A stretch of 64,000 nt of DNA from Candidatus Borrarchaeum weybense (GCA_019057385.1 JAHQJS010000008.1:1-64000), one strand, 5' to 3'. Numbered from the stretch's first letter, positions 6,344 through 33,059 are shown. Notes: generated from the sequence alone by a model not told the origin. Program-made: numbers and translations.

Positions 6344-6470
6344 ACGATCACCTAGTAACATTGACGAATATTCACGGACACTCATTTATCGCGTCTTTCG
6401 TGATGTATCTCGTTGTTTCAATTCACATGTTGTTATATAAACCTTTCGTTAGGTGGTAGATTTATACCTT

Positions 6471-6507
6471 AAACTACCCTAACTCCCTTTAGCGTGAGGT
6501 AGCTCAC
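6471..6507 (+). mobile_element. Degenerate IS200/IS605 right-end remnant
   Basis: CTTTAGCGTGAGGTAGCTCAC matches the ends at 15146-15165 and 29494-29513. Confidence 0.7.
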
Positions 6508-8132
6508 TAGACAGTGTAGGATGTGATCAAGTAGATCACAACCTTATACTCACTTACAGTATCTAGATAAACCACTTTTAGATTAGATGGAGCGCTATTC
6601 TCGTCCAACAACCCAAATTGCTCAGGCAAGTCCGCTCGTGTCTCAGCAATAGCTCTTTCATCTATTATAATATACTGTGCCTCATATTCCCTAGCAACGC
6701 GTATTATCGTTGAAAAATCACCAAAAGGTAATCTTACTGAACATCGCTCTGCATAATAAGGAATTATATCTTTTCTGCTCATTAAAATGGCGTTAGGATC
6801 AGTATTTTCTTTCAACCAGATTCCTGCGTTGTATAACTCCAAGGAATCATTTTTTCCCTCAAAACGAACTATATTGCTGGTCGTTATGACTAATGCCTCA
6901 ATTATTACAATGAGGGTCACAATTATTATGATATATCGTTTGAGCTTGAATTTCCTAATTTCTAAATCTAAAATATTCTTTGGAATAAGATCTTGCAATT
7001 TTAATATTCCTCTCGCACAAAAAATGAATATGAACGGATAGATTGCCAGATTATATCTACTAACCGCACCGATTCTTCCTGCATAAACTGCAATTCCATA
7101 GAAAGCAAAGTTAGTAAAAATTAGAAGGAAGAGTACCAATCTTTGTTGCAACTTGTTTGTTGAAACAAGCCCTCCAACGCATCCCAAAACGAATAAAAGA
7201 GGAGTAAGATATTCTGGGAATACTTTATATTGGAGATAAATCCCGATTGTCCATTTTGAAATAACACTTAAAGGATTTGCCAAGAATATTTGAATTGGGC
7301 TTGGAGGTGCTGTTAGACCATAAAAATTTGCTTCATAGTTACCTCCAAGCATATAATTTGCTAAAGCAACACTTTTTTCTGAGAAAAAGAGAGATCCTGT
7401 TAATAGCACATTACGAATTAGCCAAGGAGATATTATGATAAAGAAGCTAGCAATGAATATAAAAAGACTATACACGCCCTTTTTCATTTTACCTAGATAG
7501 AGCAAATTGAATAGCAGAACTGGCAAAAAAATAATTGCAGAGAATCTAGTTAAGTAGGCCAAACCAAAGAAAACTCCACTTAAAATTCCGTATTTTAAAT
7601 CATTTGTCTTTGCGTTTTTAATGTTCCAGTATACACAGACTGCTAAAAAAAATGCCAAAGGGATATCTGAAAAAACCTGAATTGAAAACCACACCATGCT
7701 TCGGGAAATAGACACTAGAAGGGCACTTAAGAAACCAATTTGTTCATTAAAAAGTTCTTTTCCAAGAAAATAAATCGGGAAGACCAATAGACTACCAAAT
7801 ATCACCGAGACTAACTTTGCCGAAAAATCGCTTACACCAAATATAAGATAAAAGAAATAAATTGTGTAAGGCATTAATGGAGGCCAATAGAAATCAGGAC
7901 TCCCAAATGAACTTGAAAGATATAGAAAATTTATAAACGTAACGGTGTATCCTTCTCCGTAATATAGGTTTTTTGCAAGTTGAGCATAATTCATTTCGTC
8001 TCCTTCAAAAACAATATTAAAGAATTGAAGGACAAATCGTATGCAAAATGCTATGATAAACAAAATTAGCAATCTTACTTTATCATCAGAAAAATCAATG
8101 CGCCGTTGTATTATAGAAAATACACCGCTCAT
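6507..8132 (-). CDS. GT-C (PMT/ArnT family 39-like) membrane glycosyltransferase
   Basis: GDEMNY first-loop motif, WPPL, many TM helices, LAYLTR, C-terminal W.KENT domain. Confidence 0.85.
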   Translation of the reverse strand: MSGVFSIIQRRIDFSDDKVRLLILFIIAFCIRFVLQFFNIVFEGDEMNYAQLAKNLYYGEGYTVTFINFLYLSSSFGSPDFYWPPLMPYTIYFFYLIFGVSDFSAKLVSVIFGSLLVFPIYFLGKELFNEQIGFLSALLVSISRSMVWFSIQVFSDIPLAFFLAVCVYWNIKNAKTNDLKYGILSGVFFGLAYLTRFSAIIFLPVLLFNLLYLGKMKKGVYSLFIFIASFFIIISPWLIRNVLLTGSLFFSEKSVALANYMLGGNYEANFYGLTAPPSPIQIFLANPLSVISKWTIGIYLQYKVFPEYLTPLLFVLGCVGGLVSTNKLQQRLVLFLLIFTNFAFYGIAVYAGRIGAVSRYNLAIYPFIFIFCARGILKLQDLIPKNILDLEIRKFKLKRYIIIIVTLIVIIEALVITTSNIVRFEGKNDSLELYNAGIWLKENTDPNAILMSRKDIIPYYAERCSVRLPFGDFSTIIRVAREYEAQYIIIDERAIAETRADLPEQFGLLDENSAPSNLKVVYLDTVSEYKVVIYLITSYTV

Positions 8133-8232
8133 AACGCACGATCTCTTTGAATTTGTTTTTATGTTTTTTCTGTTAAGACATGAATTTTGTTCTTAAATGA
8201 AGTCTTCTGTGAGTTCTTGACCTTACAATTAT

Positions 8233-9759
8233 TTATAAAACAGTGTAATCATTGATATAATTCCACGTTTTATGATAATCCTCAATCTTTCCCTGAGAGG
8301 AAAGATCAGCCTTAAGGTCATCGGGCTGTGTGCTCGTCACCGAGTTCAAAACATACTTCATCACTACTGTTTTTCGCAGTATCTCGGCAGTCTTGAAGGA
8401 GGTTATCCCACTGTGCTTGAACAGGTCATGGATTTGTGACCATCTACGGTAAGGACTGCCCTGTTTCACACGGGGCTCTATAAACTCCCCGACATGTGAG
8501 AGCACCCAATCATAAATGGTTGGAAATGTTTCCTTGAAACCCAAGCCTCTTCGAGCTATTACATAACTTGCTAAGTGATGTGTTGACAAATTATGTAATC
8601 GTGAATACTTATATTTCCCAATGAGGGATGTGTATTCGGGAAATACCTTTCGAAAGGACACACCGCGCTTTTTACATTTTCGCTCCAATAATTGCAGGGC
8701 GGTGGTCTTCATATTGCTCAATTTTCGGTTGCGTTTTGTGTTGTAGGAAAACTCTTGCTCGAATTGTAAATCCTCGACCACAATGCCTTTGCCTTTATTG
8801 ATACAATAATTGACGACTTTATCCATTTTATAGGAGATATAATCTTGACGTTTATCTGTTCCATAGGTGTGAAGGTTGCCAAATGAGATGCTATGATAAG
8901 AGAGTAGTTCACCGTTCCGATCTACATTGGTTAACGCCACAAAATTATAGTTGAAATCTAAGCCGATGGCACCATGTTGGTAGCTGTAACTTGGTACAGG
9001 TTCTGGGATCTCATAGGACACATGGGCAAAATAGCGCAGCTTCCCCTTGAAGAAACTCCTTTTTACGGTTACCGTGTATTTATCAGCATTAATGACTTCC
9101 TGAAACCATTTCTCCTGCACAGAATTTACGGACATGGGAATGATCAGCCATTTGCGTCCTTTTTGCTTGGAAAAGGTTCGTAACTTGACCGTTTTATCAT
9201 TCAATAGTTTGATGTTCAGGTTTTTCACTCCGTGTTGTTTCTTTCCGATACAACTAAAGGAAGAATCCCGTCGTATCCTGAACTCCTCTCTACTTATTTT
9301 GCCAAGGATTCGGTCTCTAAATAATTTCTTAGTGCCGAACACAACAGGTTCAAGCTGTAAATGGTGTAATTTCGCCATTATCGAGGATCTACGGGCGTAT
9401 AAACCCTTTAACCGCCTGTCATGCGCATCTTGTTCCTTTATGGTGTTGATTTTTTTTGTAATGGTTTGTAGTTGTTTGGTCAGGTATTTCCGTCGTTTTT
9501 CCAGCCATGTCTTTTGTGCTTCTAGTGTCTGCTTGTTATCGGTTAGGATGGTGCCAACATAGGGGTTATTGTGACACAGGCTCATCAAACAGTGTTGGAT
9601 GGTCTGTACTTCTCCAAAGCGTGCTTTCATGTAATCCTCGCCATGAAACAACACCTTATACCCAATCCGTTTCACATGATTATAGATAGTGAAGATTTCA
9701 TTTAGTTTGTATTCCTGTTTTTTGTCGGGATAGATTCCAAATTTAACCGTTTGAATCAT
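8233..9759 (-). CDS. tnpB: TnpB-related RNA-guided nuclease, zinc-finger-less, with His-type RuvC-III region
   Basis: RuvC-I AIGLDFN, RuvC-II IVVEDL, PEYTS..G..KY, HHLASYVIARRGLG; start moved to ATG 9759 (MIQTVKF); appears more GC-rich than flanks. Confidence 0.85.
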   Translation of the reverse strand: MIQTVKFGIYPDKKQEYKLNEIFTIYNHVKRIGYKVLFHGEDYMKARFGEVQTIQHCLMSLCHNNPYVGTILTDNKQTLEAQKTWLEKRRKYLTKQLQTITKKINTIKEQDAHDRRLKGLYARRSSIMAKLHHLQLEPVVFGTKKLFRDRILGKISREEFRIRRDSSFSCIGKKQHGVKNLNIKLLNDKTVKLRTFSKQKGRKWLIIPMSVNSVQEKWFQEVINADKYTVTVKRSFFKGKLRYFAHVSYEIPEPVPSYSYQHGAIGLDFNYNFVALTNVDRNGELLSYHSISFGNLHTYGTDKRQDYISYKMDKVVNYCINKGKGIVVEDLQFEQEFSYNTKRNRKLSNMKTTALQLLERKCKKRGVSFRKVFPEYTSLIGKYKYSRLHNLSTHHLASYVIARRGLGFKETFPTIYDWVLSHVGEFIEPRVKQGSPYRRWSQIHDLFKHSGITSFKTAEILRKTVVMKYVLNSVTSTQPDDLKADLSSQGKIEDYHKTWNYINDYTVL

Positions 9760-9966
9760 TGCTTTCCTTCCTTCCCTTCCCCTAAAGTCTTTTTTTGGCG
9801 TTATCAGAAAATTATTATACAATATTATATATGTAACTTCTGGTTTATATAGTTTTTGATGTTTATAAAGGCATATAAATACCAAAAGTTATTTTATGTT
9901 ATATTCATGATATTTGGGTAATATTTTTAAACAGTATAGTCTATATAATTATTCAGGGAATGGAAT

Positions 9967-10185
9967 ATGAAACGATCATTGCTGGAGATCGTAAAAATAC
10001 TTTTTGACACGCTTGATGAAAATGGATCAAATCCATTTATTCGCACTAAAGAGATCGTTGAGAAAACTGGCATAAGTCATCGCTCTTTAAAGCCGCTGGT
10101 CGAATTAATTCAGTTTATTCAAGAATAAAAAACCCTGAAATTTATCCAACAATCGCCAAGAGTAACACTCTATTTTCTTGAGTAA
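9967..10185 (+). pseudogene. Small winged-helix protein interrupted by an in-frame TAA
   Basis: Manual translation MKRSLLEIVKILFDTLDENGSNPFIRTKEIVEKTGISHRSLKPLVELIQFIQE*KTLKFIQQSPRVTLYFLE*; stop at 10126-10128. Confidence 0.55.
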
Positions 10186-10395
10186 GGGGGACATGTTTAA
10201 ACGGAAAAAGTTCACACAAAAAAGGGTCAACGTTCACTTGTGGACTCATAAAACAAAAGAGAGAAAAAGAAAGGATAGATTCAAGAACCTAACTTGTGGA
10301 TTTACAAAGCCTAGTTAATGCCGGAATCTCCTTTCGAACCGTCGTTTGAGCGCTATATAACTTCTCTTTCAACGCTGTGTGGTAAAATTCAACTC

Positions 10396-11577
10396 TCATC
10401 GTGAGTTATAACGACTATCGAGTTCTTGATATATGTTCAGCATACGTTTGGAGATTTCTGTCCAATTATATTTTTGAGCAATTACTTGTCTCCCTCTAAT
10501 AGAAAGTTCTCTAGCAAGTTCCTTGTCTAATATAAACGTTCTAATTGCCTTTGCAAGGGCGACTGAATTTTTTGATTCAACTACAATTCCGCATTTTTCT
10601 TTTGTAAGTACCTCGGACACCCCTGCAACATCTGTAGATATTACAGGGGTTCCAAAGGCAAGCGCTTCTAACGCAACCATGCCAAATCCTTCAAGTTTGG
10701 TAATTGATGGCAACACAAGAAGATCTGCCAGAGTGTAATACTTTTTCAATGTTTCCTCTTCAATGAAGCCTGTAAAAGTCACCTTCTCGTCAATATGCAA
10801 TTTTCGTGATAATTTTTCATAGTAGGGACGAAGTTCACCTTTTCCAATAATAAAAAGCCGAATTTCTGGGACTATTTTATAGACTCTAGCAAAAGCCTTT
10901 AGCAAATATGTTAACCCCTTATAGCGATGGGATGCAGTAAGTTTAGAGACAAAAAGTATTACAAATTCGTCAGAGAGGCTCATTTCACTTTTTAACTTAT
11001 CTTTATCATATTTTGACTTAAGATATCGGAGATCTACACCAACTGGAATTACAGAAATTATTGAACGCATCTTTTTCAGAATATCTGCAGTTTCAATATA
11101 TTGATGAGTTGTAGTGATTATTTTCCTAGCAAATTTTAATGTAAGTTGAAGGAGAGAATTAGAATATAGCTTAGAAAACAGAGTATTTAATGAACTTAAC
11201 GAACTTCCACGTCCTACTTCTAAATTATGAACTGTAACGATTAATGGGATACGTCTAAAATGACAATTGAAGGCAGTAATATCATAAACCATTGGATGTG
11301 GTAAGTGAGCATGTATTACGTCTGCATCTTCTTTAATAAGTCTTAAGAATAACGATGGAAGAATAGGTGTATTATAAATCTTACAAAGAGTTGGTATTCG
11401 AATTACAGGTATTCCATCAAATTCTATTGTGGATGCTGCAGTCCGATCTGATTTTGATGTATATATCTTTACTTCATGACCTTGTTTAATGAATTCTTTT
11501 GATAGATGGTACACGTAATTCTCAACTCCACCCACAACATCAGGGAGAAAGTGTGAAGTAACGTGTATAATCCTCAT
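10396..11577 (-). CDS. GT4 glycosyltransferase
   Basis: GGVE, YKG, EGFGMVALEA motifs. Confidence 0.92.
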   Translation of the reverse strand: MRIIHVTSHFLPDVVGGVENYVYHLSKEFIKQGHEVKIYTSKSDRTAASTIEFDGIPVIRIPTLCKIYNTPILPSLFLRLIKEDADVIHAHLPHPMVYDITAFNCHFRRIPLIVTVHNLEVGRGSSLSSLNTLFSKLYSNSLLQLTLKFARKIITTTHQYIETADILKKMRSIISVIPVGVDLRYLKSKYDKDKLKSEMSLSDEFVILFVSKLTASHRYKGLTYLLKAFARVYKIVPEIRLFIIGKGELRPYYEKLSRKLHIDEKVTFTGFIEEETLKKYYTLADLLVLPSITKLEGFGMVALEALAFGTPVISTDVAGVSEVLTKEKCGIVVESKNSVALAKAIRTFILDKELARELSIRGRQVIAQKYNWTEISKRMLNIYQELDSRYNSR

Positions 11578-11874
11578 TAGAATTCACTTTATTTTATGAA
11601 AGACCTTTAAAACTAAATTATTTCAAATCTTCTTTAGATTCCCATAATTTTAGATTACTGTTTCCCTGCTGATTTCGCTAACAATAATATTTTTTCGTTT
11701 AAGTGTTCTTAATTGAACACAAATCTTTTAAGAGTTCTCAAATTATACTGTCATCGCAATAATTAAATAACAACAATTTGACGTTTAGGCTTAGCACTAG
11801 ATTTAGTAACAAATTGGCATGAACTAATTTGAAGCAAAGATTTTCACCGAAAGCAACTAATTGGGTATGAGATC

Positions 11875-13908
11875 ATGTCATTTCTTAATAGCGTTTGGAA
11901 ACGCATCAGAAAGCAGATGGTTTGGCCAAATGTTGAAATTAGTGTGGTTGTTCAGTATACTTTACTTTTCATCATCTTTTCAATTGCTCTCTTGTTACGT
12001 CTATTTCCTTTTTTTAGATTTGAACCACTTCTGAAAGCATTTGATCCATGGTTTCAATATCGTGTCACTGAATTTGTAGCAAATAATGGTTATGCTGCCT
12101 ATTTCTCGTGGTATGACACACAAAGTTGGTATCCTTATGGTCGTCCTATTTGGAAGGGTTCATATCCAGGCACGCCTTTCGCTGCAGCGACAATATATTT
12201 CATCCTGAAAGCCTTAGGTATTAATACAGATATATTAATTATCTGCTATATCTTCCCTGCATTAATGGGTGCAATCACTTCTGTACTATTATACTTCTTT
12301 GGAAAAGAAATTGCTGACACAAAAACAGGATTGATTGCTGCATTTCTATTGGCCTTTTGTCCTGCATATATTAGCAGAACAATGGCGGGTTTCTTTGATA
12401 ATGAAGGTCTTGGAATATTCTTTATGGTTGCTGCTTTCTTCTTTTTCGTGCGCGCTGAAAAGAATGGTTCACTAAGTGACGGCATCCTTGCCGGTTTAAG
12501 TCTTGGCGGACTTTCAGCCAGTTGGGGTGCATTTACATTTGCCTATGGTTTAATACCACTTGTAGCCATAGCCTTACTCTTATTAAATCGCTACTCTCAC
12601 AAACTATTGTTGTCGTATTCACTGACCGTTCTAATTGGCTTACTAATTACTATTCTTGTGCCTAGAACAGGTGTCAATTTTCTTACATCATTTATTGGAT
12701 TCTTTTCACTCATTGTTCTGGCAATTTTACTTATTTATGGGGTTTTATTCTGGGTAAAGCCACTTGTACCTGATGTTTCGTTTGGAAAACTTCTTGCTGT
12801 TGTAATGATTGTAGCAATAGGATGTGTAATTAGTATCGTCGCATATCTGGTTTCACAAGACCAGCTATCACTAATAACCGGAAAATTCTTAGCAGTAATC
12901 AATCCAATAAATCGTCCACCGCTCATTGAATCTGTTAGCGAACATATTCCTTTAGCGTGGGGTCAATTGTTTTTCAATTTAGATCTTTTGGTTTTTCTTA
13001 TGCCTGTCGGCATATATTTTGCATTTCGTAGATTAAGAAATGATGATATCTTTCTTATACTCTTCAGCATCACAACAGTTTATTTCGCGGGTTCAATGGT
13101 CCGTCTTTTACTTATTTTAGCCCCTGCGGCTTGTCTTCTTTCAGCATATGCTTTAACAAATGTTTTAAGACCGTTCTCTAGAGTTTTACTCGAACGCGCT
13201 GCAATTGTGCGTAGGAGAATTCGGGTGACAGAAGTTGTACCAAAAGATTATGCGATTTTTATTTTGATTTTCATAGGGTTTATTATGACGCTTTATACAT
13301 GGCATGGGACTCAGGTAGCGTTCGATTACTTTAGTAGTCCTGATGTGATTCTTGTAGGAGAAACCTCAAGTGGGGAACCTGTGGAATTGCATGATTGGCA
13401 GGAATCAATGCAATGGTTAAGGGAAGAGACAGACTCCAACGCAGTTATCGCAGCATGGTGGGACTACGGATATTGGATTGAAGCTATTGGAAACAGGACA
13501 ACTATTGTTGATAATGCCACAACGAATAGTACACAAATTGCGTGGATAGCTGCTGCCTTTATGTCTCCTCCTGAAAACGGAACAGAGATTTTTAAGATGC
13601 TCGGCGCAGATTATGTACTAGTACATTTTACAGGTGCTGTTGGAGGCACTGGCGGTGACGAAGGTAAATGGATATGGATGGTTCGCATCGCAGAACAAAA
13701 TTTGTTCAATGAAACAAAAATTCGCGAAGTAGATTATTATGATGAAGAATCAGGAACCCCTAAGGATCCATATTACGACTCGCTACTATATCAATTACTT
13801 TACTATAACTACTACAATGCACCCCGCACCGTATCGAGTATTACATCATCTTTCCAAGAAGCGCATACAACTGAAAATTGGCTTGTCCGAATTTATCAAG
13901 TGAATTAA
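11875..13908 (+). CDS. aglB: Oligosaccharyltransferase AglB/STT3
   Basis: FDPWF, FDNE, SVSEH, WWDYG, DNATTN, DEGKWIWMVRI. Confidence 0.96.
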   Translation: MSFLNSVWKRIRKQMVWPNVEISVVVQYTLLFIIFSIALLLRLFPFFRFEPLLKAFDPWFQYRVTEFVANNGYAAYFSWYDTQSWYPYGRPIWKGSYPGTPFAAATIYFILKALGINTDILIICYIFPALMGAITSVLLYFFGKEIADTKTGLIAAFLLAFCPAYISRTMAGFFDNEGLGIFFMVAAFFFFVRAEKNGSLSDGILAGLSLGGLSASWGAFTFAYGLIPLVAIALLLLNRYSHKLLLSYSLTVLIGLLITILVPRTGVNFLTSFIGFFSLIVLAILLIYGVLFWVKPLVPDVSFGKLLAVVMIVAIGCVISIVAYLVSQDQLSLITGKFLAVINPINRPPLIESVSEHIPLAWGQLFFNLDLLVFLMPVGIYFAFRRLRNDDIFLILFSITTVYFAGSMVRLLLILAPAACLLSAYALTNVLRPFSRVLLERAAIVRRRIRVTEVVPKDYAIFILIFIGFIMTLYTWHGTQVAFDYFSSPDVILVGETSSGEPVELHDWQESMQWLREETDSNAVIAAWWDYGYWIEAIGNRTTIVDNATTNSTQIAWIAAAFMSPPENGTEIFKMLGADYVLVHFTGAVGGTGGDEGKWIWMVRIAEQNLFNETKIREVDYYDEESGTPKDPYYDSLLYQLLYYNYYNAPRTVSSITSSFQEAHTTENWLVRIYQVN

Positions 13909-13934
13909 CTAAATTTCTTAGCAAAACGAATGAT

Positions 13935-13996
13935 ATGAGGTAGTTCACCTCAGCAAGGTCTCTAGAAGCGCACTTCTTTAGGAATAGGTAGTTTAT
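13935..13996 (+). mobile_element. Two tandem degenerate IS200/IS605 right-end remnants
   Basis: ATGAGGTAGTTCAC (13935-13948) and GAAG...CTTTAGG..TAGGTAGTTTAT (13966-13996). Confidence 0.6.
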
Positions 13997-14781
13997 CCAA
14001 TATATGATAAATCGTCTTTTTCTTCTTCGCTTTCTTGTCTTCTTGTTCCAGGTCTATGCCTTTGTTTTTGTTTCATTTGATCTATAAGTTTAGTAAGATT
14101 CTGCGCTTTGATTGCTAAAGGTCCAAGATCTAGCTCTATTTCAACAAGTTTAATCAGTTTTTCAAGAACTACTTTGGCAGAAAGTGCATCTGCCATAAAT
14201 CCAGACGTCTCGCCCAGTAGGCATGCTCCTTCTATTCCCCTCATCTTTCCAAGACCAATGAGTAACCCTGAAGCCCCCACTATAGGTCCTCCAGATTCAT
14301 TTATCTCGATTTCTTCGTCCTTAAGTTGCTTTATTAAAGAAAGACTAGTGGCAGTCCCAAAAACTCTAGGATTTTTAGAAACGCTTCCTGTGGCATACCC
14401 ACCAAGCGTATAGATTTGACTCACTTTATATTTTTCAGCTAGGTCTAATATCATATTAACTATTGTAAATTGCCCTTCTGGCGTTTGACTTTGATAATCT
14501 CCTGTAATAAATATAACATCATGTTTCCCACCACTTTTCGAAAGTTGGGAAAACCAAAATTCATTACGAAGAAGCCTTAGAATCCCATCATTATTTACAA
14601 GCACATGATAAGGAAAAGTATACGAAAAAAGTTCTGCAAAATAAATTGCTTTAAGCTCTTGGATCATGTGGCTTACTCCTAGTTTACCAACATTTCCAAC
14701 ACCTGGCAACCCTTGAATTAGTATAGGGTCTTTCAAAGATATTGGATCTAAATCCTTCAAGAAGCGGATTCTGGACTTCAT
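13993..14781 (-). CDS. Proteasome assembly chaperone PAC2 family
   Basis: GLPGVGNVGKL, TGDYQ, TLGG, CLLGET, C-terminal YIG; conserved position after nop10. Confidence 0.92.
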   Translation of the reverse strand: MKSRIRFLKDLDPISLKDPILIQGLPGVGNVGKLGVSHMIQELKAIYFAELFSYTFPYHVLVNNDGILRLLRNEFWFSQLSKSGGKHDVIFITGDYQSQTPEGQFTIVNMILDLAEKYKVSQIYTLGGYATGSVSKNPRVFGTATSLSLIKQLKDEEIEINESGGPIVGASGLLIGLGKMRGIEGACLLGETSGFMADALSAKVVLEKLIKLVEIELDLGPLAIKAQNLTKLIDQMKQKQRHRPGTRRQESEEEKDDLSYIG

Positions 14782-14787
14782 TTATAA

Positions 14788-14973
14788 TCACTCCTCTTTT
14801 TGGTGAAGTGTTAAAGTTGTTTTAAGAAGCATCCGACGATATTTTCCGTACTTATCTTGTGGGCTAAACTTTGAAGGGGCAGCAATTCTTAAGTGTCCAC
14901 CGCAATTAGGACAAATTTCTTTTGCCAAACTATACTGATAACAAGCAACACATTTCTTCAACAATTTCCCCAT
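14788..14973 (-). CDS. nop10: H/ACA RNP protein Nop10
   Basis: KC..C..YSL...CPNCG and PSKFSPQDKYGKYR; start moved to ATG 14973. Confidence 0.93.
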   Translation of the reverse strand: MGKLLKKCVACYQYSLAKEICPNCGGHLRIAAPSKFSPQDKYGKYRRMLLKTTLTLHQKEE

Positions 14974-15118
14974 ACCAAAATTCACCCATCCATTTCTTAG
15001 TAAAATCTTTGTGTTCAGGCACAATATAAGGATCCAATGTCAATGAAGTTTTGTTCATAATATGGATTATTGGCTCATTATAGAAATTGATTCGTTGAGA
15101 AATGCAACAGACCTTATA

Positions 15119-15165
15119 GCCAAGTACAGTTAAAAGCCTCACTGCTTTAGCGTGAGGTAGTTTAA
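15119..15165 (+). mobile_element. IS200/IS605 right end (same family as the 29.5 kb element)
   Basis: CCAAGTACAGTTAAAAGCCTCACTGCTTTAGCGTGAGGTAGTTTA differs from 29468-29512 at only two positions. Confidence 0.85.
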
Positions 15166-15965
15166 GTATCCTCTTCGAAGTATCCTTCTCCTCCTCCTTT
15201 CTCCAGAGCGGTAATTGTTGCACTTACGGCTTTATTTAAGATTTTCTCTGCATTTTTATAATCATTTGCTTGAATTGAGAACCTATATCGTGGTGATCCG
15301 ACCAGATTAACATCTAGAGTAATATCTTTTCTCCGAGTTGATTTTAAACCCTTTTTCAAGGCATTTTTTATTATTTCAACGCCATCTGGTTTGTAACATT
15401 TAAGTTCAACTATTTTTGTTAGTTTTACTTTCCTTATAGTTACATGTGCTTTTGCTAGTTCAACAACGGTCTTTATCCATTCGTCATCAATTCCCATTTT
15501 TTCTAGAACTGCTTCACCTTTCTCATGTATTTCTTCAAATCCAGCGTAGATTTCACCAAATTTTTCCTCTAAAGGCCATCCCACGGCATCATAGACTTCT
15601 TCTTTAGTTTTATCTAGTTGTTTTGCAACTAATTCTAAGAGATTATCTGCTTTCTGTGAACGTTTCCATTCCTGAATCTTATTTCTTCGCATCACGATTG
15701 TAACTCGCCTAAGCGAGAGATCTACGTGATTTTTTGCTTCTTCGACACGTAGCACTTTCGCAACTACCTTCTGCTTCTCCCTTACGTAGTTACGAATATT
15801 GCGGACCCACGTTGAAGCTATTTCTGAGATATGAATAAGCCCTTCTTTCCCTTCGAATTCATCTAAAGTTGCATATGCACCATGAGAGGAGATTTTTGTA
15901 ATAGTGCCTATTACAAATTCGCCTTCTTCTGGGAATTCTTTTTTCTTTTTGACCATTTCTCTCAT
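15162..15965 (-). CDS. eif2a: Translation initiation factor 2 alpha subunit
   Basis: S1 domain FPEEGE..GLIHISE, VDLSLRRV, GSPRY. Confidence 0.96.
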   Translation of the reverse strand: MREMVKKKKEFPEEGEFVIGTITKISSHGAYATLDEFEGKEGLIHISEIASTWVRNIRNYVREKQKVVAKVLRVEEAKNHVDLSLRRVTIVMRRNKIQEWKRSQKADNLLELVAKQLDKTKEEVYDAVGWPLEEKFGEIYAGFEEIHEKGEAVLEKMGIDDEWIKTVVELAKAHVTIRKVKLTKIVELKCYKPDGVEIIKNALKKGLKSTRRKDITLDVNLVGSPRYRFSIQANDYKNAEKILNKAVSATITALEKGGGEGYFEEDT

Positions 15966-17258: not shown

Positions 17259-18032
17259 TTATTCACTACCTTCAATTCGGGGGGCTAAAAAGTATTCTAA
17301 CTTTCCTCCTCCGATAGTCTCAAATCCAATTTTTAATGGCATATCACTTGAATATTCAATTTCTAGATTTTCTGCTGCACTAACAGCTTTTGTCATATCA
17401 CTTAGATACTTAAGGGCATAAATTGCTTTTGATTCTTCTCTTACTTCATACTTATAAAGCGTATCTGTTTCCTTATCAATGATTACCTCAACTTCGCCCG
17501 TGTCTCCTTCAGCGGCTACTTTAAGCATATCTGCGGTCGTCTCCAGAAGAATATAATCCCCTACAACTTCCGCGTCTTTAATAGCATCCTTAAAAACGCC
17601 TGCAACTATATTGATAATTGTATTAAATTCAATTTTAGGAATAGGTATTTCCTCTCCACTTGTATCTCCAAGTAAAGAAAGGCTGAAATTACGTGTGACC
17701 TTGTCAGATTTTAACTTCAGTTTTAATTTATTCTTAGTCTCATCCACAGTAAGTTCTAAGGAATCTGATCCTCCTGCTCTTCGCATGATCTGCATCATTT
17801 CAGTAAGGCTAATTCCAAATTTTGTTTCGCCAGTGCATTTGTAATCTTGAAATACGCTGGATGGTACTTGGAGGTCAACCATTGCAATATGTGCTTCGTC
17901 AATCGCGCGTGCATGAAGGCCAGATTCGTCTGCAGAAAAATAAATCTCCTTTACAAGAGCTGATAGCGCTTCTATAATTGTCTTCCATGTGATAGCTTCT
18001 TCAAAAAAGGCTTTTACAACCATTTTCATCAT
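17259..18032 (-). CDS. pcna: Proliferating cell nuclear antigen (sliding clamp)
   Basis: AID.AHIAMVDL, F.DY, Y.LKYL, PLKI, YFLAPRIE. Confidence 0.96.
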   Translation of the reverse strand: MMKMVVKAFFEEAITWKTIIEALSALVKEIYFSADESGLHARAIDEAHIAMVDLQVPSSVFQDYKCTGETKFGISLTEMMQIMRRAGGSDSLELTVDETKNKLKLKLKSDKVTRNFSLSLLGDTSGEEIPIPKIEFNTIINIVAGVFKDAIKDAEVVGDYILLETTADMLKVAAEGDTGEVEVIIDKETDTLYKYEVREESKAIYALKYLSDMTKAVSAAENLEIEYSSDMPLKIGFETIGGGKLEYFLAPRIEGSE

Positions 18033-18139: not shown

Positions 18140-18518
18140 CCCCAAGGAAATTCCTTCCCTTAAGGGTGGAGAGGAAGTGAGATCGGACTCTGCTTACACC
18201 CCCCCCTTTCTGTGAGGCGCAGGGGATAGTTTACCCAACCTCGCTCGGGTGGTGTTTTAATGACGGGTACTCGCAAGTCCTGTCGCTCCCAACACCAGGG
18301 AGTAAGTCCACTTCGAGATTGTTGTAAAGGCTTTTTACATCAGCAGCATCGTTCCTACCCCTCAGAACTTTTAACCACCGACGACAGACCAGGGGGCTAG
18401 TGGAACACCCCAGGGTGTCGTGGCCTAAACAGCTGCTGCATCTCACTGAGAGATGCCCTCTAATCAACTAAGAGACTTGCATGAACAAGTCCCTACCCTT
18501 TAGGGTGGGGTAGTTGGC
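18140..18518 (-). mobile_element. Non-autonomous IscB/IsrB-type element (both ends kept, nuclease ORF deleted)
   Basis: End hairpins CCCCACCCTAAAGGGTAGGG and CTCCACCCTTAAGGGAAGGAA; residual TTG-start MRVPVI at 18276; residual tail HFLSTLKGRNFLGVFL* in another frame. Confidence 0.82.
18280..18518 (-). ncRNA. HEARO / IscB omegaRNA scaffold
   Basis: GCCAACTACCCC..CTAAAG..ACTTG..CAAG..GTTGATTAG, ACACCCTGGGGTGTTCCACTAGCCCC, TTAAAAGTTCTGAGGGGTAGGAAC, ACAATCTCGAAGTGGA match the HEARO pattern as I recall it. Confidence 0.85.
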
Positions 18519-29140: not shown

Positions 29141-29179
29141 TTTTTCTTTAACCAATATATCTTTCAAAACTTCACTGAT

Positions 29180-29513
29180 CCCTCTCAAGGAAGCCCCTGC
29201 CCTTTAGGGTGGGGAGGAATTGAGGGTGTGTTTCACTTGTACAAGGGTCTCTCCACTTTTAAATATATGTTCTGGGATAGAGGTACGTGGTCTCAAGGCA
29301 CACCTCTCGTAGAAGTGGAAACGGTTAATGACCTCAAGGGTGATGAGCATTAAACTAGTATAGCCCGACTCTAGATGAGGATTACTGGGCTGGGGTCTAG
29401 TAAACGCCCCCATGATTTAGCGTGTGATGAAGTTGAAACTCTAGCTGGTGTAGTTAGAGGACTGAGACCAAGTACAGCTAAAAGCCTCACTGCTTTAGCA
29501 TGAGGTAGTTTAC
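29180..29513 (+). mobile_element. Non-autonomous IS200/IS605 mini-element with an internal structured RNA
   Basis: Left end CTCAAGGAAGCCCCTGCCCTTTAGGGTGGGGAGGAATTGAG; right end AAAGCCTCACTGCTTTAGCATGAGGTAGTTTAC; no credible ORF. Confidence 0.85.
29283..29513 (+). ncRNA. Candidate TnpB-type omegaRNA/reRNA scaffold
   Basis: TATA-like TTTAAATATA at 29258; closing stem GTACGTGGTCTCA/TGAGACCAAGTAC; hairpins AGCCC..GGGCT, GGGG..CCCC and CTCTAGCT..AGTTAGAG. Confidence 0.6.
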
Positions 29514-31569: not shown

Positions 31570-31695
31570 GTGAACTACCACCCAACAAGTTAGGTGGCTT
31601 CTGCCCTCACGGATTGTTGAGCTTTCTCTACGAGAGATAGCAAGAACCCGCTCATTGGCAGTCCGGGGTGATCCACGGCACCCCCCGTTCCTTCA
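31570..31695 (-). ncRNA. reRNA/omegaRNA overlapping the tnpB 3' end
   Basis: Nested stems CTGCC/GGCAG, TGAGC/GCTCA, TCTCT/AGAGA and end hairpin CCACCTA/TGGGTGG; predicted guide AGGAATGCAATCAGAG. Confidence 0.7.
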
Positions 31696-33059
31696 AGGAA
31701 CACTTTGGTTTTCGCCTTACGGCCATTACTGTTCTTCTTCGTCTCAGTAAGGCACTTCAGACCGTCTATCAGGATGTTAAACGCCGCATTTATGTCTCTA
31801 TCGGCAGAAAATCCGCAGTTAAGACAGGTAAACGACCTGTCTTTGACCTCTACCTTTCGCGAACCGCACATGGAACATCGGTGGGTGGTCCACCACTCGT
31901 TCATGACGAAGGCCACTCCGTCTCGTACCAGCACCGCTATAGCTATACGGTCGGCGCAGTCCTTGAACGCCCAGTGATTTACCCGTTTCCTGTTCCTCCT
32001 GTGCCCCGAACCCCTGTAATGGCAGTTACGCACTTTGTCGGGGCAACCTATAAACACCAACGAACCTGTAAGGTGATCGGCTATAACTATCGCCAGTTTT
32101 CTCCTGAAATCTTTTGCATAATTTACCCGTTTCCTGTAGAGTTTTTTCAAAACCGCGTATTTCCCTATCCGCTTCAACTTAGCGATCCTATTGTTGAGTT
32201 GGCACATCCTGATGAAGAACTCTTTGTAGTCCTCTTTCTTAAAGAAGAGGTCACGTGCTTCGCCTGCAAGCTCATATTTTACAGCAGTCGCCAGCCGCTT
32301 CAAGCCGAGATCAATGCCTGTAACGGACTTCAGCACAGGGCAAACTTCTTTTTCTATGACGACATGCACTTCGTAGCGTTTTAACCTGTAGTTTTTGACC
32401 ACCTGAAAAGACTTAACACGCCATTCTTTATCATGGAAGTGCTTTTCGGCATGCGGATACACATACAACGGTAAATGTAACTTCTTACCTTTTTTAAGCG
32501 TGGAAATCCTAGCCCAGAGAGGAAACACCTTTGATGTGCGGGAAAGGGCGATGTCGCCTACACGGTAGTCGAACATGACGGGCACCTTCCCCCTAATAGT
32601 CGGTGATGACGGTTCCCTCTTATTCCAGCGGTATAGTTTGTGCAGTAACTTCCGCAACCTTTTCTTATCTTTAACAGTGCTCTTCTTGGTAAGGCGTTTT
32701 TTACAGGTGGTTATTGACCTTTCCAGACGGTTGACGTCTCGCTGCCAGTCATGGTGCAGTTTTTGATATGACTTATACATCCAGAGGGCTTTATCACGAC
32801 AGGCTTGTGCGAAGCCTGAAGACAGCCCCGTAACCGCTTGTACGTCCTTGCGGTATTTTTCCACTTCTTTGGTAGCAGTTATGTTTTCAGAGATGATATT
32901 TTCAAGAAAAAGTTGCACCCCGTAAGTGATCCGTGAGGTAAGGTTGTCGAGGAACTTCATTTTTGTTATTGTGATCTTGTCGTCAACGGGAAGCACTAGC
33001 GTCTTGCACATTAGAAGTGGTTTGGCAAGTTGAAGTTCCATCTTTTCCCTCCATGACAC
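31590..33059 (-). CDS. tnpB: TnpB RNA-guided endonuclease with rearranged RuvC-II glutamate
   Basis: GIDLG; FIGCP where E is usual; NEWWTT..CSMCG; CLNCG..ADRDINAAFNI. Confidence 0.92.
   Translation of the reverse strand: MSWREKMELQLAKPLLMCKTLVLPVDDKITITKMKFLDNLTSRITYGVQLFLENIISENITATKEVEKYRKDVQAVTGLSSGFAQACRDKALWMYKSYQKLHHDWQRDVNRLERSITTCKKRLTKKSTVKDKKRLRKLLHKLYRWNKREPSSPTIRGKVPVMFDYRVGDIALSRTSKVFPLWARISTLKKGKKLHLPLYVYPHAEKHFHDKEWRVKSFQVVKNYRLKRYEVHVVIEKEVCPVLKSVTGIDLGLKRLATAVKYELAGEARDLFFKKEDYKEFFIRMCQLNNRIAKLKRIGKYAVLKKLYRKRVNYAKDFRRKLAIVIADHLTGSLVFIGCPDKVRNCHYRGSGHRRNRKRVNHWAFKDCADRIAIAVLVRDGVAFVMNEWWTTHRCSMCGSRKVEVKDRSFTCLNCGFSADRDINAAFNILIDGLKCLTETKKNSNGRKAKTKVFLEGTGGAVDHPGLPMSGFLLSLVEKAQQSVRAEAT

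What the first reader, a model, noticed from the sequence alone, without database searches (positions are those of the whole stretch)
6499..15167. IS right ends supply in-frame stop codons of host genes (possible silent-insertion strategy)
Seen: in GGTAGT-TTAA (15162-15165) the TTA is the aIF2alpha stop. In GGTAGT-TTAT (13993-13996) the TTA is the PAC2 stop, directly after its typical YIG terminus. In GGTAGC-TCAC (6504-6507) the end gives the G of TAG plus an in-frame TGA for the GT-C gene. Known: these elements insert just 3' of a short target motif and end in TCAC/TTAC, whose reverse complements contain TGA/TAA. Inference: insertion at a TTAN/TCAN target formed by an antisense stop codon regenerates the stop in register. 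This would allow harmless insertion in essential operons and make the guide antisense to the gene 3' end.
Basis: partly seen in the sequence, partly recalled or inferred. Interest (0 to 1): 0.72.

Follow-up and report, generated by a model that had tools for sequence, protein, structure and literature searches.

The report
Transposon ends rebuilding host stop codons
Small IS200/IS605-type jumping elements in this Asgard archaeon land exactly on the stop codons of host genes and supply a new in-frame stop from their own last four bases, so the proteins stay unchanged; this happens about five times more often than chance placement predicts, but it follows from this transposon family's known end rules.

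Summary
Three minus-strand genes end exactly at a repeated plus-strand motif ending GGTAG(T/C) plus four bases: GT-C/PMT_2, PAC2 and aIF2alpha.

The motif is the right end (RE) of IS200/IS605-family elements: a subterminal hairpin plus a terminal tetranucleotide. The genome holds 128 such ends, on TnpB elements, IscB/HEARO elements and protein-less PATEs, and one Y1 TnpA.

Empty sites in same-genus genomes fix the rule. One group inserts after TTAC and ends in TCAC. Another inserts after TCAC and ends in TTAC. On the other strand these read G-TAA and G-TGA, so landing on a stop codon swaps TAA and TGA in register.

24 of 128 right ends sit on a co-oriented gene's stop, against about 4% expected (p about 6e-10). 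The excess holds under stricter nulls and recurs in a relative (4 of 30).

All three window copies are decayed fragments. Orthologues lacking them keep the same C-termini.

IscB-type ends (TGAC) are not silent: they add five residues.

I could not show that this is an evolved strategy rather than a survival filter. The scan has already noted the same phenomenon in other genomes. I found no paper describing it.

The parts
6485..6507 (+). 23-nt right-end (RE) fragment of a TCAC-ending IS200/IS605 element. The terminal tetranucleotide TCAC is at 6504-6507.
   Evidence: nhmmer profile positions 1-23, E = 8.5e-5. No similarity to other copies beyond that point (ext = 0).
6507..8132 (-). GT-C/PMT_2 glycosyltransferase gene. 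Stop TAG at 6509-6507; base 6507 is shared with the RE tetranucleotide. An in-frame TGA follows at 6506-6504.
   Evidence: ORF list. Pfam PMT_2, E = 4e-22. G004 has TAG at the same position with no element.
13949..13996 (+). Decayed 48-nt single-hairpin mini-element (PATE). Its RE tetranucleotide TTAT (13993-13996) supplies the TAA stop of PAC2.
   Evidence: Collinear with the 47-49-nt minis C6:735023 and C6:417415. Absent in G001 and G003, which have TGA at the same codon.
13932..13948 (+). TCAC (13945-13948) is the target tetranucleotide kept at the left side of the mini-element. It is also the end of an older RE fragment (GAGGTAGT-TCAC).
   Evidence: Sequence read. The same nested layout is seen intact at C6:549226.
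13993..14781 (-). PAC2 (proteasome assembly chaperone) gene. The protein ends DDLSYIG.
   Evidence: Pfam PAC2, E = 3e-42. The C-terminus is identical in five genomes of the genus.
15120..15165 (+). 46-nt RE fragment of the TTAC-ending, TnpB-type family. Its tetranucleotide TTAA (15162-15165) supplies the TAA stop of aIF2alpha.
   Evidence: 96% identical over 45 nt to the complete copies at window 29468-29512 and at C4:1214145. nhmmer E = 3e-8. The hairpin folds at -8.1 kcal/mol, z = -3.1.
15162..15965 (-). aIF2alpha gene.
   Evidence: Pfam EIF_2_alpha and S1. The stop is at the same position in G003, which has no element there.
14788..14975 (-). Nop10 gene, the next gene of the operon downstream of the aIF2alpha relic (context only).
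   Evidence: Pfam Nop10p, E = 6e-19.
29176..29513 (+). Complete 338-nt protein-less element (PATE) of the same family as the aIF2alpha relic. The RE ends in TTAC (29510-29513); the target TCAC is at 29172-29175. It is not on a stop codon.
   Evidence: Both hairpin ends found; sequence read; 87% identical to C4:1213850-1214190.
18302..18518 (-). Orphan IscB-type omega RNA (HEARO). It uses the same hairpin end but is transcribed on the other strand. It is not on a stop codon.
   Evidence: Rfam RF02033, 104.7 bits against a gathering score of 83, model positions 1-211.

Best explanation
The motif is the right end of IS200/IS605-family transposons: a TnpA-binding hairpin followed by the terminal cleavage tetranucleotide.

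These elements insert without duplication immediately 3' of a four-base target on their top strand. In this genome one group targets TTAC and ends in TCAC. Another targets TCAC and ends in TTAC. IscB/HEARO elements target TCAC and end in TGAC.

Read on the opposite strand, target and end are G-TAA, G-TGA and G-TCA. When the target is the stop codon of a gene on that strand, insertion moves the old stop to the far (left) side of the element. The element's own last four bases then restore the final codon's third base (G) and give a new stop in the same register. TAA becomes TGA or the reverse, and the protein is unchanged. With the IscB-type end the frame instead runs on for five codons to a TAA in the hairpin loop.

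Shown:
- the end structure;
- the target rule;
- the register, from empty sites;
- the unchanged C-termini;
- the excess of stop-codon landings.

Inferred: the excess is mainly passive. Landings on a stop are harmless and therefore kept, and right-end relics that have become a gene's stop cannot be deleted. I do not infer an active search for stop codons.
For: **Family identity**
- One Y1 TnpA is present, PF01797 E = 6.5e-38 at C7:194221-194586.
- There are 41 TnpB zinc-ribbon hits, many lying beside right ends on the expected strand.
- There are 36 HEARO matches at E of 1e-10 or better; 28 reach the Rfam gathering score. All 36 start GTCA.

**Cleavage-site rule**
- In long copies the third base of the tetranucleotide covaries, Watson-Crick, with the base next to the hairpin foot. 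GTGA goes with C in 46 of 49 copies, GTCA with G in 15 of 16, and GTAA with T in 3 of 5.

**Target**
- 43 of 45 complete TCAC-ending elements have GTAA after the left end.

**Empty sites**
- MeaB: G000 'AG|G TGA [316 nt] GTAA TAACTTATTTGCCC', G004 'CG|G TAA TAACTTATTTGCCC', G002 'GA|G TAA TAATTCATTTGCCC'.
- DUF362: G002 shows the same pattern.
- Reciprocal case: G004 is occupied and G000 is empty at C5:12676.
- PAC2: G003 has 'GGG TGA' and G001 has 'GGA TGA' without an element. G000, G002 and G004 have 'GGA TAA [mini-element] GTGA'.

**Enrichment**
- 24 of 128 against 4.1% expected, p = 5.6e-10.
- 24 of 86 against 9.2% among sites that follow a co-oriented gene, p = 5.7e-7.
- 24:6 against 463:587 for target sites 4-30 nt after a stop, odds ratio 5.1, p = 1e-4.
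- The result is stable for gene-length cut-offs of 50 to 150 aa.
- Long ORFs ending at the boundary fall 16:2:1 across the three frames.

**Host genes are real**
- 16 of the 20 tested have Pfam domains. Where checked, the matches run to the end of both protein and profile, as for thiolase, ribosomal S10 and GcvH.

**Replication**
- 4 of 30 sampled ends in G004 sit on stops. Three of these four sites are not in G000's census.

**Support for a passive cause**
- Short copies and relics are more enriched than long ones (30% against 12%, Fisher p = 0.016).
- Five stop-located copies have lost the terminal G through synonymous host-codon changes.
Against: - The passive reading does not fully explain the size of the excess. 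Target sites 4-30 nt past a stop should be about as harmless, yet they are used five times less.
- In the young 37-copy PATE family, the 6 stop-located copies are no older than the rest (5.2% against 7.3% divergence, p = 0.23). Slower decay therefore cannot explain that family's 16%.
- The aIF2alpha relic in G000 is 96% identical over its first 45 nt to complete copies of its family. G002 and G004 carry a different, more decayed end at the same junction. A single simple insertion does not explain this.
- The gene set behind the statistics is a crude longest-ORF set, not a curated annotation.
Confidence: 0.75

Rival explanations
1. Evolved landing strategy. The element-encoded guide bases are kept at values that specify TTAC/TCAC because these are complements of G+stop. 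Stop-codon landings are then favoured actively. One route is insertion preference at gene ends. Another is that the TnpB/IscB guide then lies inside coding sequence, so deletion-type escape from re-cleavage of the empty site damages the gene and only restoration of the element is viable.
For: - Excess over nearby, equally non-coding target sites: odds ratio 5.1.
- The excess persists in a young PATE family whose stop-located copies are no older than the rest.
- Both targets and two of the three end types found here are stop complements, and they are set by a covarying internal base.
- Repeated hits occur at the same stop: C6:549226 and PAC2.
Against: - No extended target motif distinguishes stop contexts.
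- About 80% of copies are not on stops.
- The IscB-type end TGAC gives no stop.
- Most stop-located copies are protein-less PATEs or relics. They gain nothing from a guide unless a nuclease acts in trans.
- AT-rich TTNAY-type targets are general in this family (Meers 2023, PMC10055086; Kapitonov 2016, PMC4810608), so no special selection need be invoked.
Confidence: 0.2
2. Host exaptation. The short hairpin relics directly after stop codons are kept because they now serve the host as 3'-end hairpins, for transcript stabilisation or termination, in the way REP elements do in bacteria.
For: - The excess is strongest for short hairpin-only copies (14 of 46).
- The relic after aIF2alpha is a stable hairpin followed by a T run.
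- A hairpin-end relic has persisted at the aIF2alpha and PAC2 stops across G000, G002 and G004.
Against: - The relics differ in sequence between close relatives at the same site. At aIF2alpha, G000 differs from G002 and G004.
- The PAC2 and GT-C relics no longer fold significantly better than shuffles (z = -1.3).
- No terminator-like site was called at any of the three junctions.
- Complete 200-320-nt PATEs show the excess too.
Confidence: 0.1
3. Coincidence or ORF-calling artefact. Any sequence containing TGA/TAA closes an open frame, so the junctions would mean nothing.
For: The tetranucleotide does carry a stop in one frame. The ORF set is crude.
Against: - Frame counts are 16:2:1.
- The distance distribution has a spike at distance 0, while other distances spread from 5 to 800 nt.
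- p values lie between 1e-6 and 1e-10 for every gene cut-off tried.
- Most of the tested ORFs are known gene families with intact C-terminal domains.
- Empty sites have the native stop at the same position.
Confidence: 0.02

Closest known systems
IS608 of Helicobacter pylori (IS200/IS605 paradigm; target TTAC, right end TCAA; my own knowledge of Barabas et al. 2008, cited in PMC7290912)
   Same: - Y1 TnpA.
- Subterminal hairpins and no inverted repeats.
- No target duplication.
- Insertion 3' of TTAC.
- Cleavage sites read by a short internal guide next to the hairpin foot; covariation is seen here.
   Different: - The right ends here finish in TCAC, TTAC or TGAC rather than TCAA.
- Two families have swapped target and end tetranucleotides, so each end is the other family's target.
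- The host is an Asgard archaeon.
- I know of no report that IS608 landings on stop codons are enriched.
ISC (IscB) and IS605B (TnpB-only) transposons with GT|RA, GT|GG and N|ATGA target sites (Kapitonov et al. 2016, PMC4810608)
   Same: - 5'-GTCA termini on IscB elements.
- Termini shared between IscB elements and TnpB elements, with TnpB encoded on the opposite strand.
- Target sites GTGA/GTAA verified through empty loci.
- Mobilised in trans by a Y1 transposase.
   Different: - That paper writes the cut inside the target (GT|RA), which is an equivalent notation.
- It does not mention stop codons at all (0 occurrences).
- The stop-register effect and its excess are measured here.
ISGst elements and PATEs of Geobacillus stearothermophilus (Meers et al. 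2023, PMC10055086)
   Same: - TnpA and the nucleases share an AT-rich adjacent motif (TTTAT, TTCAT).
- The IscB omega RNA is built from the RE with a 5' guide taken from outside the element.
- IscB elements are biased to lie behind co-oriented genes.
- Protein-less PATEs are present.
   Different: - The bias reported there concerns orientation, for omega-RNA transcription, not register with the stop codon.
- Stop codons are not mentioned.
PATEs and terminal-only IS605 remnants of Haloquadratum walsbyi (Dyall-Smith et al. 2011, PMC3119063)
   Same: - Protein-less elements with near-terminal palindromes.
- About 50-nt terminal-only forms made by core deletion between the two hairpins, matching the 47-54-nt single-hairpin minis here.
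   Different: No relation to host stop codons appeared in the passages I retrieved (12 of 29 matching places shown).
IS605 stem-loops overlapping the 3' ends of Borrelia lipoprotein genes (Delihas 2009, PMC2775950)
   Same: IS605-derived end hairpins lie just after host genes and overlap the last 8 nt of the coding region. The paper notes that other small repeats overlap gene 3' ends.
   Different: - That case involves the left end.
- There is no target rule, no register argument and no statistics.
IStrons (IS200/IS605 fused to a group I intron; Tourasse et al. 2014, PMC4227781)
   Same: An IS200/IS605 relative whose insertions are harmless to host genes.
   Different: - Harmlessness there comes from RNA splicing.
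- Here no intron is present (no Rfam intron match), and harmlessness comes from rebuilding the stop codon at the DNA level.

Membership tests
IS200/IS605 (IS608-like peel-and-paste elements) | Y1 HUH transposase TnpA available in the genome | tested here: met
   PF01797, E = 6.5e-38, with an open 156-aa frame at C7:194221-194586. It is followed by a tnpB gene and a right end of this type at C7:195885. There is none in the window itself.
IS200/IS605 (IS608-like peel-and-paste elements) | Subterminal imperfect hairpins at both ends, with no terminal inverted repeats | tested here: met
   The right-end hairpin (CCTCAC...GTGAGG) and the left-end hairpin (CACCAC...GTGGTG) were recovered in more than 100 copies. 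The aIF2alpha copy folds at -8.1 kcal/mol, z = -3.1.
IS200/IS605 (IS608-like peel-and-paste elements) | Insertion 3' of a fixed 4-5-nt target without target-site duplication | tested here: met
   Clean empty sites in congeners: MeaB and DUF362 and C5:12676. 43 of 45 complete elements are flanked by the TTAC complement.
IS200/IS605 (IS608-like peel-and-paste elements) | Cleavage tetranucleotides specified by pairing with bases next to the hairpin foot | tested here: met
   Three-state Watson-Crick covariation in long copies: 46 of 49, 15 of 16 and 3 of 5. The biochemistry could not be tested here.
IS200/IS605 (IS608-like peel-and-paste elements) | Accessory TnpB or IscB with an omega RNA overlapping the right end | tested here: met
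   41 PF07282 hits, many within 200 nt of a right end and on the expected strand. 36 HEARO matches at E of 1e-10 or better, all starting at the GTCA end.
IS200/IS605 (IS608-like peel-and-paste elements) | The three window copies are complete, mobile elements | tested here: not met
   - 6485-6507 is a 23-nt fragment.
- 15120-15165 is a 46-nt fragment.
- 13949-13996 is a decayed 48-nt mini.
- None has a left-end hairpin of its own family, and two have lost the terminal G.
PATE (protein-less IS200/IS605 derivative) | Both transposon ends present with no protein gene between them | tested here: met
   Window 29176-29513 is a 338-nt example. Genome-wide there are 45 complete TCAC-ending copies of about 48, 204 or 315 nt.
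HEARO / IscB omega RNA (Rfam RF02033) | Match to the covariance model at or above the gathering score | tested here: not met
   Met for 18302-18518 (104.7 bits against 83). Not met for the three sites of the finding, which gave no match even at E up to 1. Those sites share only the first hairpin module.
IStron | Group I intron ribozyme joined to the IS | tested here: not met
   The only Rfam match in the window at gathering score is HEARO.

The most novel reading that the evidence does not exclude
Stop-codon mimicry could be a selected property of these transposons. Their internal guide bases would be held at values that make both target and right end the complement of G+TAA or G+TGA.

This would give three benefits:
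- Landing on a stop is protein-silent.
- Complementary families can relay into each other's ends at the same stop, toggling TAA and TGA.
- The nuclease guide is anchored in the 3' end of a needed gene, so cells that lose the element cannot escape re-cleavage by deletion.

Gene ends would then be preferred, long-lived safe harbours even inside essential operons.
Probability: 0.2. Interest if true: 0.7.

Novelty: new member of a known kind. Interest (0 to 1): 0.45.

Why it matters
- **Annotation.** In genomes rich in these elements, the last bases of many genes are transposon DNA, including essential ones such as aIF2alpha and ribosomal protein S10. The IscB-type end adds a recurrent five-residue tail (S-I/T-T-P/S-P) to unrelated proteins.
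- **Transposon biology.** The result gives numbers for how a four-base target rule shapes where IS200/IS605 elements, and the guide RNAs of TnpB and IscB, persist in a compact genome.
- **A testable case.** It offers a clean way to separate insertion preference from survival. Two families whose ends are each other's targets build nested stacks at a single stop codon.
- **If the excess is an evolved safe-harbour strategy.** It would be a DNA-level counterpart to the splicing trick of IStrons.

Tried and rejected
- **All motif copies as IscB omega-RNA 5' ends.** HEARO matches the minus strand at 18302-18518, so I first read every copy this way. I rejected this for the finding's sites. TnpB genes lie on the strand that makes this the RE of TnpB-type elements, and the three sites have no HEARO match even at E up to 1.
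- **Extended target motif.** I looked for one that could explain the excess. Base counts for 12 nt on each side of non-stop insertions show only AT-richness.
- **Slower decay.** In the 37-copy PATE family the stop-located copies are not older than the rest. Short relics are, however, over-represented.
- **Gene-set artefact.** Rejected by repeating the test with cut-offs of 50, 70, 90 and 150 aa.
- **Thiolase site.** Relatives have TAG at the same position but a rearranged downstream flank, so there is no clean empty site.
- **G004 sites L051 and L052.** G000 is occupied by a decayed end at the first and is ambiguous at the second.
- **aIF2alpha history.** G000 carries a fresh 45-nt end where G002 and G004 carry a different decayed end. 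I could not decide between re-insertion followed by deletion and gene conversion.
- **Literature.** Searches combining IS605, IS608 or IS1341 with TTAC and 'stop codon' found no paper describing this effect. The library is incomplete, so this is 'not found', not 'absent'.
- **Terminator scan.** It gave no call at the three junctions.
- **Not attempted.** I did not look at RNA or read data.

Full report
**What is at the coordinates**

The window lies in a 4.18-Mb, 37% GC archaeal genome (G000, contig C8). Earlier notes of this scan, and the presence of Ras-like GTPases, point to an Asgard archaeon.

- a GT-C/PMT_2 glycosyltransferase (6507-8132);
- PAC2 (13993-14781);
- aIF2alpha (15162-15965).

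On the plus strand each stop codon abuts GGTAG(T/C). The aIF2alpha TAA is the TTA of TTAA (15162-15165). The PAC2 TAA is the TTA of TTAT (13993-13996). The GT-C TAG uses base 6507 of TCAC, with TGA next in frame.

The shared 15-mer is far more frequent in the window than in shuffles (6 against 1.26 expected).

**What the motif is**

Rfam finds one full HEARO RNA, the IscB omega RNA, at 18302-18518 on the minus strand. The genome has 36 HEARO matches at E of 1e-10 or better (28 above the gathering score), and all of them begin GTCA-AYYACCCC.

It is also the end of several other repeat families.

A profile of this module finds 128 copies. Their first four bases are conserved as GTGA, GTAA or GTCA, and everything upstream is unrelated. 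The four bases therefore belong to the element.

The other end of the elements appears in the same search. It is a second hairpin followed by about 20 nt and then GTAA or GTGA.

The genome also has one Y1 transposase and 41 TnpB hits. The TnpB genes lie on the strand opposite to the orientation used above. The TnpB omega RNA runs out of the RE into the flank.

IscB elements use the same end but are transcribed inward from the flank. Meers et al. describe exactly this arrangement (PMC10055086).

**Target rule**

Forty-five complete elements ending in TCAC were recovered. They are about 48, 204 or 315 nt long and carry no protein gene, so they are PATEs. In 43 of them the left end is followed by GTAA, which is TTAC on the top strand. 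The TTAC-ending family and the IscB family are followed by GTGA, which is TCAC on the top strand.

In long copies the third base of the end tetranucleotide pairs, Watson-Crick, with the base beside the hairpin foot:
- GTGA with C in 46 of 49 copies;
- GTCA with G in 15 of 16;
- GTAA with T in 3 of 5.

This is the pattern expected from the IS608 rule that an internal guide reads the cleavage site (my knowledge of Barabas et al. 2008).

Kapitonov et al. already reported GT|RA targets and GTCA termini for IscB and TnpB-only elements (PMC4810608).

**Direct proof of register from empty sites**

Four genomes of the same genus were available (G001-G004).

- **MeaB gene.** G000 reads AG|G TGA, then a 316-nt PATE, then GTAA TAACTTATTTGCCC. 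G004 reads CG|G TAA TAACTTATTTGCCC and G002 reads GA|G TAA TAATTCATTTGCCC.
- **DUF362 gene.** G002 is the empty site in the same way.
- **Reciprocal case.** G004 carries a 205-nt PATE on a stop that is an intact G TAA in G000 at C5:12676.
- **PAC2.** All five genomes end in DDLSYIG. G003 reads GGG TGA and G001 reads GGA TGA with no element. G000, G002 and G004 read GGA TAA, then a 44-nt decayed mini-element body, then GTGA. The mini-element is collinear with intact 47-49-nt minis elsewhere.
- **aIF2alpha.** G003 has its stop at the same codon position with no element.
- **GT-C.** G004 has TAG at the same position with no element.

None of the three C-termini was altered.

**Is it more than chance?**

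I built a crude gene set of 3657 longest ORFs of at least 90 aa. I then measured the distance from each right end to the nearest upstream gene.

Among the 86 ends that follow a co-oriented gene:
- 16 have the gene's stop as the TGA or TAA of the tetranucleotide;
- 3 have a TAG whose G is the first base of the tetranucleotide;
- 5 GTCA ends are read through for five codons.

The remaining distances spread from 5 to 800 nt. Long ORFs ending at the boundary fall 16:2:1 across the three frames.

For the null I counted all GTAA and GTGA sites. 463 overlap a stop in this way and about 10,700 lie in non-coding DNA, so 4.1% is expected. The results are:
- 24 of 128 observed, p = 5.6e-10;
- restricted to sites behind a co-oriented gene, 24 of 86 against 9.2%, p = 5.7e-7;
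- against target sites 4-30 nt past a stop, 24:6 against 463:587, odds ratio 5.1, p = 1e-4.

The excess holds for gene cut-offs of 50 to 150 aa.

Twenty stop-located host ORFs were checked with Pfam, and 16 have domains. They include thiolase, ribosomal protein S10, GcvH, MeaB, a KaiC-like ATPase, citrate synthase, MscS and a Ras-like GTPase. Where checked, the matches run to the end of the protein and profile.

In G004, 4 of 30 sampled ends are on stops. Three of the four sites are not in G000's census of right ends; at one of them G000 nevertheless carries a decayed end.

**Why the excess?**

- No extended target motif was found.
- Short copies and relics are more enriched than long ones (14 of 46 against 9 of 76, p = 0.016).
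- Five stop-located copies, including aIF2alpha and PAC2, have lost the terminal G through synonymous change of the host's last codon.

These last two points fit relics being frozen in place once they serve as a stop.

Long copies are still about three times enriched (p = 0.004). In the young 37-copy PATE family the six stop-located copies are no older than the others. Retention therefore cannot be the whole story.

My reading is that a survival filter plus retention is most likely. An evolved preference remains possible at about 0.2.

**Further points**

1. **Each family's end is the other's target.** At C6:549226 a TPR gene reads CT|G TGA, then a 314-nt PATE, then GTAA-ACGACCCC (a mini-element), then GTGA. 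The stop has toggled TGA, TAA, TGA. The PAC2 site has the same nested layout.
2. **IscB-type ends are not silent.** Five host proteins carry a tail S-I/T-T-P/S-P read from the omega-RNA scaffold, ending at the TAA in its first hairpin loop.
3. **The operon has been hit repeatedly.** The aIF2alpha-Nop10-PAC2 operon was hit several times in this genus. G004 also has a full 350-nt PATE between aIF2alpha and Nop10.
4. **One site is unexplained.** The G000 relic at aIF2alpha is 96% identical over its first 45 nt to complete copies of its family, while G002 and G004 hold a different decayed end at the same junction.

**Comparison and novelty**

The elements are ordinary members of IS200/IS605, ISC and PATE families. 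Every defining feature I could test was met, except that the three window copies are fragments (see the membership table).

The stop-rebuilding effect follows automatically from the known target rule. I found no paper that states it. Delihas noted IS605 stem-loops overlapping gene 3' ends (PMC2775950).

This scan has already reported the same effect in other genomes, including another Asgard genome where about a fifth of copies sit on stops. Those are unchecked AI notes, and they agree with what I measured independently here.

The new contributions here are:
- the statistics against several nulls;
- the reciprocal empty sites;
- the covariation;
- the relay between families;
- the five-residue tails.

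Noticed in passing
window 18302-18518 (-): A full-length HEARO/IscB omega RNA with no IscB gene after it. PCNA (17259-18032) is the next gene on that strand. Its first four bases are GCCA instead of the genome-wide GTCA.
   Followed up: partly
G000 C6:532057, C7:90630, C4:362795, C6:735023, C7:798771: IscB-type (GTCA) ends sit on host stop positions. They extend five unrelated proteins by S-I/T-T-P/S-P, and the frame ends at the TAA in the omega RNA's first hairpin loop. The hosts include a KaiC-like ATPase, a citrate-synthase-like protein and a PEMT-like protein.
   Followed up: partly
G000 C6:549226-549590: Nested relay at one stop codon. The gene is followed by TGA, a 314-nt PATE, GTAA, a 43-nt mini-element and GTGA. 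Each family's end serves as the other family's target.
   Followed up: yes
L003 (G004:C31), between aIF2alpha and Nop10: G004 has a complete TTAC-ending PATE of about 350 nt in the aIF2alpha-Nop10 spacer. G000 and G002 read TTGA at that spot, while G004 has GTGA after the element, so the target base differs between occupied and empty alleles.
   Followed up: partly
window 8233-9885 (-): A 550-aa ORF between glycosyltransferase genes with no Pfam family; the only hit is a weak HTH_OrfB_IS605 match (E = 0.004). Its nearest Atlas clusters are bacterial hypothetical proteins, and 13-14% of the members of two of those clusters carry SSO2105_N. It may be a mobile-element gene.
   Followed up: partly
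window 31590-33059 (-): A 489-aa ORF with a TnpB zinc-ribbon match (PF07282 at C8:31773-31910). A TnpB-type element therefore lies in the window outside the finding.
   Followed up: no
window 6470-6507 (+): The GT-C relic is part of a small palindrome-like arrangement, TTAA-ACTACCC...GGTAGC-TCAC. It looks like two end fragments placed head to head around one CTTTAG loop.
   Followed up: no
G000 C7:194060-195890: This is the only autonomous element in the genome (tnpA plus tnpB). Its left-end flank looks like TTTAA/TTAAC rather than TTAC. One transposase may therefore mobilise families with different internal guides.
   Followed up: partly
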